Below are positions 994 through 2,262 of a stretch of 26,535 bases of DNA, piece after piece. The translations under genes were made by a program, and so were the position numbers. Below the pieces are notes generated by a model. The model searched no databases. It worked only from the letters and a program-made list of their open reading frames with translations, and was not told the origin of the DNA. The stretch comes from Azolla caroliniana. Taxonomy: Eukaryota > Plantae > Polypodiophyta. The stretch spans positions 1 to 26,535 of the forward strand of contig JBHGNT010000424.1 of assembly GCA_043228905.1 (NCBI GenBank), in the 5' to 3' direction. How positions within the stretch are numbered: position 1 is the stretch's first letter; each line of letters begins with the position of its first letter.

Positions 994-2180
994 CTAGACT
1001 GAACCAGTTGTTACTGATGATAGAGAACTGGCAATTTTTTAGCGGAACGTAGCCGGATTTTTCTACACCTCTTCACTCAATAGCTTTTACTCCTTGATAC
1101 CCTCAAGTATGTGTGGTTTGATTTTGTCGGGGAGTTCCTTCTCATATTAAGCGATCTATGTCAAAGGGATCTAGTCCGGGAACCCATTGACCGCCGCGAG
1201 GATAACTACAATCTGTCATTCGATAGGGATCAGGGGATATTATAGTTATTTAAGTACCTCGGTAAGCCTAGCGCCGCAATATGGCGAATACTAAATAGCG
1301 GGATCGAGGTCTGACCCAAATTACGCAGAAGCGGCAACTTCACGATGTTATGCCGGCTCCAATTTTAAGGTGCCACGAAGTGCTTTCATAGCTTTCGGCT
1401 AAGCGGCAGACCCAACACAACTAACGAGTAATCCTACGTTAATAACGAGCCAAACTCCGCGATAGAGAGGTTCAGTTTCCGGGAGGATTTATCCATCTGT
1501 AATGAGAATGACATTGATAAGAGTATAAACAGAAACGTCTCCAGCTTATATTTCAATGACGAGTGAAGCAATCGAGCTACCTACACCAGTCTAGTCTAAC
1601 CTTTTGGCGGCTCTTTCCGATGAACAGAGATATGAATAGAAGACATCTCCGAGGGAAACCTCACAACCTAGTAGTCAACGTGGCGATAATGACATTTATC
1701 AATATGCCACTGATTACTTACTGGGATCGTCATAGATGATTAATGCGTGCATTCCATGATCTCTAGAAGACTCTCCCGTAGCACGACCAGGATGTAGTGC
1801 CGGGAATTACAGGAGAGCAGAATCCGAAGCCGTGACTACAACAATAATGAGATATTCCAGAGCACCGGCTTCCGGGGGAATCTTAACCGATTATGCCACG
1901 GTTGAACGTTTTTATCCAATCACTACGTACACGCGAAACAATTTTTCACTATCGAAGGTGCCCTATGCGTTGATTGGTTTCTAGTTCAGAATGGTATCAA
2001 TAGCTATAGCAGTCTTTCCAGTTTGTCGGTCGCCGATTATCAGTTCCCGTTGACCACGACCTATAGGGACTAGGCTATCCACCGCTTTTAACCCTGTTTA
2101 CATAGGTTCGTGGACAGATTTACGTGCAATAATCCCAGAGACTTTGACTTCTACACGTCTTCATTCTACCGCGCTCAAAG
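994..2180 (-). CDS. atp1: ATP synthase F1 alpha subunit, exon 2 (codon 121 to the C-terminus); needs extensive RNA editing
   Basis: Frameshift-free reading: [52 protein letters not shown] (Walker A) ... IIYDD.SK*SVAY**MSL ... *AGDVS ... ITDG*I ... *FGSDLD ... ATF.*K. About 27 internal stops fall at Gln/Arg positions wherever the alignment is clear. The true stop (TAG 996-994) is inferred from length. Confidence 0.95.
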
Positions 2181-2262
2181 ATAGAGTCAAGCTTCTGCCG
2201 AGGAGAAGTGATCGTAGTTGTGCTCTCCGAACCGTGCGGAATAGTCGCCCATTACACGGCTC
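2181..2262 (-). ncRNA. 3' end of group II intron atp1i361g2 (domains V and VI)
   Basis: Domain V is 34 nt, GAGCCGTGTAATGGGCGACTATTCCGCACGGTTC (2262-2229), with the AGC triad and a GCGA tetraloop. Domain VI has a bulged A at -7 and ends ...TTGACTCTAT, abutting the exon in phase 1 (G|CT, the Ala after DGKG). Upstream extent unknown. Confidence 0.93.

What the first reader, a model, noticed from the sequence alone, without database searches (positions are those of the whole stretch)
994..2262. atp1 exon 2 with only the 3' end of intron atp1i361g2: candidate inter-chromosomal group II trans-splicing in a fern
Seen: intact domains V-VI joined in phase 1 to a frameshift-free 1,187-nt atp1 exon. I found no atp1 exon 1 motifs (GDGIARVYG, NLENENVG, GRVVDALG.PIDGKG) on either strand of the 17,257-bp unit by eye. 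Known: atp1i361g2 is a fern-specific group II intron normally described in cis, and plant mitochondrial trans-spliced group II introns usually break in domain IV. Inference: exon 1 and domains I-III lie on another chromosome and the mRNA is assembled in trans. I am not aware of a trans-spliced form of this intron having been described.
Basis: partly seen in the sequence, partly recalled or inferred. Interest (0 to 1): 0.85.

Follow-up and report, generated by a model that had tools for sequence, protein, structure and literature searches.

The report
Fern atp1 half-gene on recombined circle
This 17-kb piece of water-fern mitochondrial DNA carries only the second half of the atp1 gene, joined at a short repeat inside its intron to the start of another gene, and it is likely an ordinary recombined side-form of a genome whose working atp1 is likely still in one piece elsewhere, rather than a first case of trans-splicing of this intron.

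Summary
Exon 2 (994-2180, minus strand) follows intact intron domains V-VI in phase 1, and exon 1 is absent from the 17,257-bp unit. Two RNA runs of one study show the spliced exon 1-exon 2 junction and heavy editing, so the mRNA is made. The editing pattern points to Azolla.

The trans-splicing reading is weakened. Public DNA contigs show three other exits and one other entry there. In RNA, the unspliced intron signal continues into an exit absent from this window, while the window's own path is at background (inferred from contig depths). Published data list a genomic exon-to-exon atp1 amplicon for Azolla filiculoides and report no trans-spliced intron in its mitogenome.

Best reading: a sub-genomic recombination isomer, with atp1 cis-spliced from another isomer (about 0.7). 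Trans-splicing is not excluded (about 0.2), because exon 1 was never seen in DNA here. No earlier scan note covers this.

The parts
994..2180 (-). atp1 exon 2 (1,187 nt; 27 internal stop codons, removed by U-to-C editing where checked)
   Evidence: edits in RNA contigs; 10 of the 34 listed exon edits remove stops
2181..2264 (-). Group II intron domains V and VI, 3' end of atp1i361g2
   Evidence: Rfam RF00029 49.9 bits; domain V hairpin -17.9 kcal/mol; RNA splice junction at 2180
2263..2414 (-). Single-copy intron sequence upstream of domain V, with a long hairpin; likely the 3' part of domain IV
   Evidence: flat DNA depth and one contig in 3 of 3 DNA runs laid; 2181-2460 folds at z -3.41; the domain assignment is inference
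2415..2455 (.). 41-bp repeat core. An alternative left flank (B) enters at 2415 and an alternative exit (H) leaves at 2455; likely recombination point
   Evidence: contig ends, loose ends and depths
2415..2552 (.). 138-bp nested repeat covering the atp8 upstream region; further exits at 2501 (C) and 2552 (G); two alleles at 2455-2457
   Evidence: none of the four flanks occurs in the unit (8 or more mismatches in 30 nt)
2548..3060 (+). atp8, divergent from the atp1 fragment; 3' end inferred from the TAA at 3058
   Evidence: Pfam YMF19 E 8e-10; edited and abundant in RNA; 8 stops match published atp8 stop-removal sites
548..621 (-). tRNA-Met (CAU) downstream of atp1
14574..16592 (-). rrnL, only the part downstream of the first intron site; the 5' exon was not found in the unit
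   Evidence: recalled 5' motifs mismatch by 3-4 of 12-15; 3' control motifs by 0 and 2
1..17257 (.). Repeat unit (circle-mapping or head-to-tail); second partial copy at 17258-26535
   Evidence: 9,278-nt overlap, 0 mismatches

Best explanation
The window holds only exon 2 and the 3' end of the atp1 intron, joined at a 41-bp repeat to the atp8 upstream region, and is likely a sub-genomic recombination isomer of a multipartite Azolla-type mitochondrial genome whose atp1 mRNA is likely made by ordinary cis-splicing from another isomer. Shown: exon 1 is absent from the unit; the repeat has several flanks in independent DNA runs; the spliced, edited mRNA exists. Inferred: the parental arrangements are (exon 1 - intron 5' part - flank H - repeat - intron 3' part - exon 2) and (flank B - repeat - atp8). 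Crossover in the shared 41 bp gives the window's exon 2/atp8 junction. The half-gene on the circle would be a largely silent passenger.
For: (1) Contigs break at 2415-2552 in 4 of 4 DNA runs laid, with exits at 2455, 2501 and 2552 and an entry at 2415. (2) RNA run X16: unspliced intron contig 106.9, repeat core 136, flank B 37.9, exit H 83.9. Neither the window's own allele nor exit C is among the 7 contigs laid. Against a DNA-scaled background, the intron excess (75-82) matches the H excess (66-68). The core depth fits a through-going RNA (predicted 145) better than no cover (63-69) or two overlapping RNAs (211-213). (3) RNA run X15, by flow arithmetic: the window allele is 92.9 against 89 expected from background, H about 161 against 60, intron 224 against 104. 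(4) PMC5010907 Table 1 lists KJ944561 for A. filiculoides in the atp1 column, not the cDNA column. Its primers lie in exon 1 and exon 2, and Azolla is named in the domain II/III alignment. (5) The A. filiculoides mitogenome preprint states no trans-splicing intron was found in ferns. (6) In PMC12548569 Table S5 the rows run atp6, atp9, atp1 (1510 down to 2, unbroken), rps11, rps13, rpl6, while atp8 follows nad4L elsewhere. This reads like contig order with a collinear atp1 (my inference, the table does not say how it is sorted). (7) Haplopteris has nested repeats inside group II introns with alternative exits and intact cis genes. (8) The window junction looks real: H can carry at most 55-71% of exon-2 copies in three runs.
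Against: Exon 1 and intron domains I-III were never seen in DNA here. Only 30 nt of flank H are visible, so H is not shown to lead to exon 1. All depths are whole-contig means from short-read graphs with simplified bubbles. The H values for X1, X5 and X15 are inferred, and both RNA runs are from one study and unstranded as contigs. In run X11 no H exit is listed and little flow is left for it. Exon-2-side and atp8-side depths agree within 5-9% in 4 of 4 DNA runs, as expected if the window's junction were the main form. The window could be another Azolla species or accession than the one amplified. I could not read KJ944561 or MN400566-74. In Haplopteris, recombination across intron-borne repeats was only very weak, whereas here 29-45% of copies would be recombinant.
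Confidence: 0.7

Rival explanations
1. Obligate trans-splicing: atp1i361g2 is broken in this lineage. The 3' half is transcribed from a molecule without exon 1 (through H or from the circle) and pairs with a separately transcribed 5' half.
For: Exon 1 is absent from a circle-mapping unit. Spliced mRNA is present. No intron-less copy exists at mitochondrial depth: X1 depth is flat at 45.1 across the splice site. Exon-2 and atp8 depths track each other. A HiFi survey calls the A. filiculoides mitogenome 'genuinely multipartite'.
Against: Genomic atp1 accession and domain II/III data for A. filiculoides. No trans intron was reported by two groups that checked splice junctions in Azolla. The break sits on a dispersed repeat, not a unique site. 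Precursor RNA does not follow the window's path.
Confidence: 0.12
2. Mixed state: a cis gene exists, but the abundant exon-2-only molecules also yield 3' half-transcripts that are spliced in trans. This would be an intermediate of a cis-to-trans transition.
For: At least 29-45% of exon-2 copies cannot continue through H. Domains V-VI are intact on them.
Against: RNA over the window's repeat allele is at background in X15 and not assembled in X16. The region upstream drives atp8 in the other direction.
Confidence: 0.1
3. Assembly chimera: the assembler crossed the repeat wrongly and the exon 2/atp8 junction does not exist in cells.
For: No laid contig spans 2415-2552 in any of the 6 runs laid. 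The unit has a further branch at 3121 and depth drops from 49.1 to 34.5 there.
Against: Flow requires 29-45% of exon-2 copies to go on along the repeat beyond 2455. The window allele's depth is 0.85-1.12 of the exon-2 side in three runs. The 9.3-kb exact overlap suggests long accurate reads (inference).
Confidence: 0.08

Closest known systems
atp1i361g2, fern-specific group II intron (Zumkeller et al. 2016, PMC5010907; parts 1, 2 and 4 of the text, section 11, passages and part 1 of supplementary file 3 read)
   Same: Same insertion site and phase (after DGKG+G), domain V-VI at the 3' end, and a domain-V look-alike on another contig as expected from its paralogue rps3i249g2.
   Different: Here only the 3' ~275 nt precede a switch into the atp8 upstream region; the paper describes cis copies and intron losses only.
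Intron-borne nested repeats R180/R137/R259 and R596 of Haplopteris ensiformis mtDNA (PMC10027690; section 8 and passages read)
   Same: Short repeats shared between a group II intron and gene-flanking regions, several exits in close succession, unequal copy numbers, alternative arrangements that make gene fragments.
   Different: In Haplopteris recombination across the intron copies was only very weak; here the fragmenting junction appears to be 29-45% or more of exon-2 copies and the repeat core is only 41 bp.
Trans-spliced bipartite group II introns of seed plants, including inter-chromosomal nad1, nad2 and nad5 in Paphiopedilum micranthum (PMC9966765; passages read)
   Same: A 3' exon preceded by domains V-VI on a small chromosome with no 5' exon.
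   Different: Those genes have no cis copy. Here a cis copy is likely, and no half-transcript from this molecule was seen.
[quoted passage not shown]
   Same: The only trans-spliced fern mitochondrial intron my searches found; the window's rrnL also lacks its 5' exon at about this site.
   Different: Group I and in rRNA; it is not the finding in question and was not tested here.

Membership tests
atp1i361g2 | Insertion after atp1 position 361 (Marchantia numbering), phase 1 | tested here: met
   RNA junction at 2180 joins ...GGT G to CT TTG AGC; the liverwort homologue P0007 has DGKG ending at residue 120
atp1i361g2 | Group II domain V and VI with bulged A and AY end | tested here: met
atp1i361g2 | Domains I-III with EBS1/2 and a domain III like that of rps3i249g2 | not testable with these tools
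   Not in the unit (published intron primers do not match); no genome or homologous locus could be fetched
Trans-spliced bipartite group II intron | Exons joined in mature RNA | tested here: met
   2 of 2 RNA runs, one study
Trans-spliced bipartite group II intron | 5' exon absent from the molecule carrying the 3' exon | tested here: met
   for this unit only
Trans-spliced bipartite group II intron | No cis-arranged copy anywhere in the genome | tested here: inconclusive
   Alternative exits exist and the literature points to a cis copy in A. filiculoides; the copy was not seen directly
Trans-spliced bipartite group II intron | Separate 3' half-precursor transcribed from this arrangement | tested here: not met
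   RNA over the window's allele is at background; the precursor excess follows exit H. Indirect, from contig depths
Trans-spliced bipartite group II intron | Break in domain IV with base pairing between the halves | not testable with these tools
   5' half not available; a candidate stem (UGACUU/AAGUCA) can already close within the window
Repeat-mediated sub-genomic isomer of plant mtDNA | Junction lies on a repeat with alternative flanks | tested here: met
   4 of 4 DNA runs
Repeat-mediated sub-genomic isomer of plant mtDNA | Both parental and recombinant flank pairings exist on single molecules | not testable with these tools
   Only short-read contigs were available; none spans the repeat

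The most novel reading that the evidence does not exclude
atp1i361g2 is trans-spliced in this Azolla, wholly or in part, between separate mitochondrial molecules. It would be the first trans-spliced group II intron in a fern mitochondrion, possibly caught mid-transition with cis and split isomers side by side, on a circle that also carries a 5'-less rrnL.
Probability: 0.2. Interest if true: 0.62.

Novelty: new member of a known kind. Interest (0 to 1): 0.27.

Why it matters
On the best reading it is an ordinary product of repeat-driven recombination in a fern mitogenome, and a caution that a half-gene on one contig is not evidence of trans-splicing. It is mildly interesting that a gene-fragmenting junction at a 41-bp repeat seems to make up a third or more of exon-2 copies. 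If trans-splicing were shown, it would overturn the published statements that fern mitochondria have no disrupted group II introns and may lack the factors for them. It would also give a live system for studying how cis-to-trans shifts begin.

Tried and rejected
No whole genome is held, so the decisive tblastn for exon 1 in the assembly could not be run. A scan of metagenome contigs for the exon 1/intron start junction gave 2 hits, both unrelated bacterial or phage-like DNA with no match to the unit and no RNA family. Scans for flank H and for domain V found 0 hits in viral contigs and 0 in genome contigs. The homologue search returned Atp1 proteins but no genomic context. Duplex folding of the four 30-nt flanks with the intron 3' part favoured H (14 of 300 shuffles as good, against 113-260 for the others). 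With four motifs tried this is too weak to count. An intron-less atp1 at mitochondrial copy number is rejected for X1 (flat depth at the splice site). A dead pseudogene reading of the exon sequence is rejected: it is one unbroken 1,808-nt contig in X1, X5 and X9 and is heavily edited in RNA. The idea that the 138-bp repeat is the domain III shared with rps3i249g2 was dropped because the paralogue contig aligns only at 2220-2273. Twenty other open frames gave no Pfam hit above cut-off. Literature searches found no report of trans-spliced atp1i361g2. Subscription papers, GenBank annotations and the bioRxiv supplements of the Azolla mitogenome were not visible and may bear on this.

Full report
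OBSERVATION. The window is a 17,257-bp unit plus an exact 9,278-bp second copy. On the minus strand, 994-2180 encodes Atp1 from residue ~124 to the stop in a single frame with 27 internal stops. 387 of 392 codons equal, or differ only by C/U from, a fern-like Atp1. Domains V-VI of a group II intron lie directly upstream (Rfam 49.9 bits). Exon 1 is not in the unit by tblastn, by an HMM over read-through frames, or by published primers, each of the first and last with a positive exon-2 control.

ORGANISM. With an offset of 370, the window has the editable base at 30 of 30 listed sites shared by five Salviniales species, 25 of 25 exon-2 sites shared by Azolla and Salvinia, 2 of 2 shared by Azolla and Marsilea, and 1 of 1 unique to Azolla. 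It has 0 of 24 strong Marsilea-only sites and 0 of 1 Salvinia-plus-Marsilea site (sites from PMC12548569 Table S5; rows 31-90 of 172 were not put into this count). Four mostly weak Salvinia-only sites are also editable and do not discriminate. The Azolla-only site is edited in both RNA runs (position 1875). The organism is therefore likely Azolla; the species is not resolved.

THE mRNA IS MADE. Both RNA runs laid (X15, X16; one study) have a contig that leaves the window exactly at 2180 into sequence reading ...LGVPIDGKG, plus about 97 A>G/G>A differences that the two DNA runs essentially lack. Of the 34 exon edits listed, 10 remove stops. DNA depth in X1 is flat across the splice site, so there is no intron-less copy at mitochondrial level. 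This confirms splicing but cannot tell cis from trans.

WHAT LIES UPSTREAM. Between it and the intron lies a nested repeat, 2415-2552. In DNA runs X1, X9 and X11 (three studies) and X5, the contigs break there. A second flank B enters at 2415, exits leave at 2455 (H), 2501 (C) and 2552 (G), and there are two alleles at 2455-2457. None of these flanks is in the unit. Relative to the exon-2 contig, atp8 is 1.05-1.09, C 0.39-0.49, G 0.24-0.30, and H 0.55 (X9, direct), 0.57 and 0.71 (X5 and X1, inferred). H is not listed in X11. So at least 29-45% of exon-2 copies continue along the repeat as in the window; the junction is probably real, though no contig spans it.

WHICH PATH IS TRANSCRIBED. In X16 the unspliced intron contig has depth 106.9, the 40-nt core 136, B 37.9 and H 83.9. 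The window's allele and C are not among the 7 contigs laid. Scaling background from B, the intron excess (75-82) matches the H excess (66-68), and the core fits one RNA passing from the intron into H (145 predicted) rather than none (63-69) or two overlapping ones (211-213). In X15 the window allele (92.9) equals its background estimate (89), while the intron (224 against 104) and inferred H (161 against 60) are in excess. A first solution for X15 gave H 216 but was circular. These are whole-contig means from unstranded, simplified graphs, so the inference is moderate. It says the precursor comes from an arrangement other than the window's. In DNA, H is a 91-nt contig that meets another branch after 61 nt. 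The contig bearing a domain-V look-alike ends 185 nt upstream of its match. Both would fit meeting at the domain III that PMC5010907 reports as nearly identical between atp1i361g2 and rps3i249g2, but this is conjecture.

LITERATURE. PMC5010907 lists a genomic atp1 accession for A. filiculoides, uses primers in exon 1 and exon 2, and names Azolla in its domain II/III alignment (the figures themselves are not held). The Azolla mitogenome preprint (10.1101/2022.12.23.521604; parts 1 and 3 and passages read, supplements closed) gives nine records, about 157 kb, from short reads, and says no trans-splicing intron is found in ferns. PMC12548569 (passages, section 8 and supplement parts read) verified splice junctions in four more Salviniales and mentions trans-splicing only in its references. 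Its table order suggests a collinear atp1 downstream of rps11 and atp8 beside nad4L (inference). PMC10027690 shows the same kind of intron-borne nested repeats in Haplopteris with only weak recombination, no disrupted group II introns, and one trans-spliced group I intron in rrnL. A 2026 preprint (10.64898/2026.10.26.761860; passages) calls the A. filiculoides mitogenome genuinely multipartite. Inter-chromosomal trans-splicing itself is known in seed plants. Seven searches found no trans-spliced atp1i361g2. PMC10012718 and PMC4915041 were read as passages only.

MECHANISM. Most likely, crossover in a 41-bp repeat shared by the atp1 intron and the atp8 upstream region produces a molecule with exon 2 back-to-back with atp8, while a parental isomer keeps atp1 whole and is cis-spliced (0.70). 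Obligate trans-splicing (0.12), a mixed state (0.10) and mis-assembly (0.08) remain. Shown: absence of exon 1 from the unit, the repeat and its flanks, splicing and editing. Inferred: flank pairing, the identity of H, and cis linkage.

VERDICT. Real feature, correctly described, but likely an ordinary mitochondrial isomer. Interest 0.27. The open case, a first trans-spliced group II intron in ferns, has probability about 0.2 and can be settled by one long-read query.

Noticed in passing
window 14574-16592 and 16593-16750, minus strand: rrnL on this unit also lacks its 5' exon. It begins right after a G preceded by group I-like motifs (recalled R/S-type words at 16731 and 16628, small hairpin before the splice site). 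This is about the site of rrnLi825g1, which is trans-spliced in Haplopteris. Rfam gave no group I hit and folding was unremarkable (z -0.64). It could be a second recombination break or a real trans-spliced intron.
   Followed up: partly
window 2548-3060, plus strand: Unannotated atp8 with 8 internal stops that match published stop-removal edits.
   Followed up: yes
window 2415-2552: The repeat covers the atp8 5' region, and each of its three alternative exits has an ATG at or within 30 nt of the branch. It may be a 5' cassette reused by several genes; the partners were not identified.
   Followed up: partly
window 3092-3121: A further graph branch just downstream of atp8; DNA depth falls from 49.1 to 34.5 in X1 and from 133 to 90.1 in X5, so the unit is not uniform in copy number.
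   Followed up: no
window 8400-8470, minus strand: Degenerate copy of trnW (54 of 84 columns identical to 4918-4996) with a shortened D arm and CTA in place of the CCA anticodon; not called by ARAGORN.
   Followed up: partly
window 4093-4167: tRNA-Arg (UCG); PMC10027690 describes trnR-UCG in Haplopteris as chlamydial-type. Origin not tested here.
   Followed up: no
window 3538 and 3552: Runs X1, X5 and X15 all differ from the window here (one substitution and a 10-nt longer simple repeat), so the window is another individual or has a local error.
   Followed up: no
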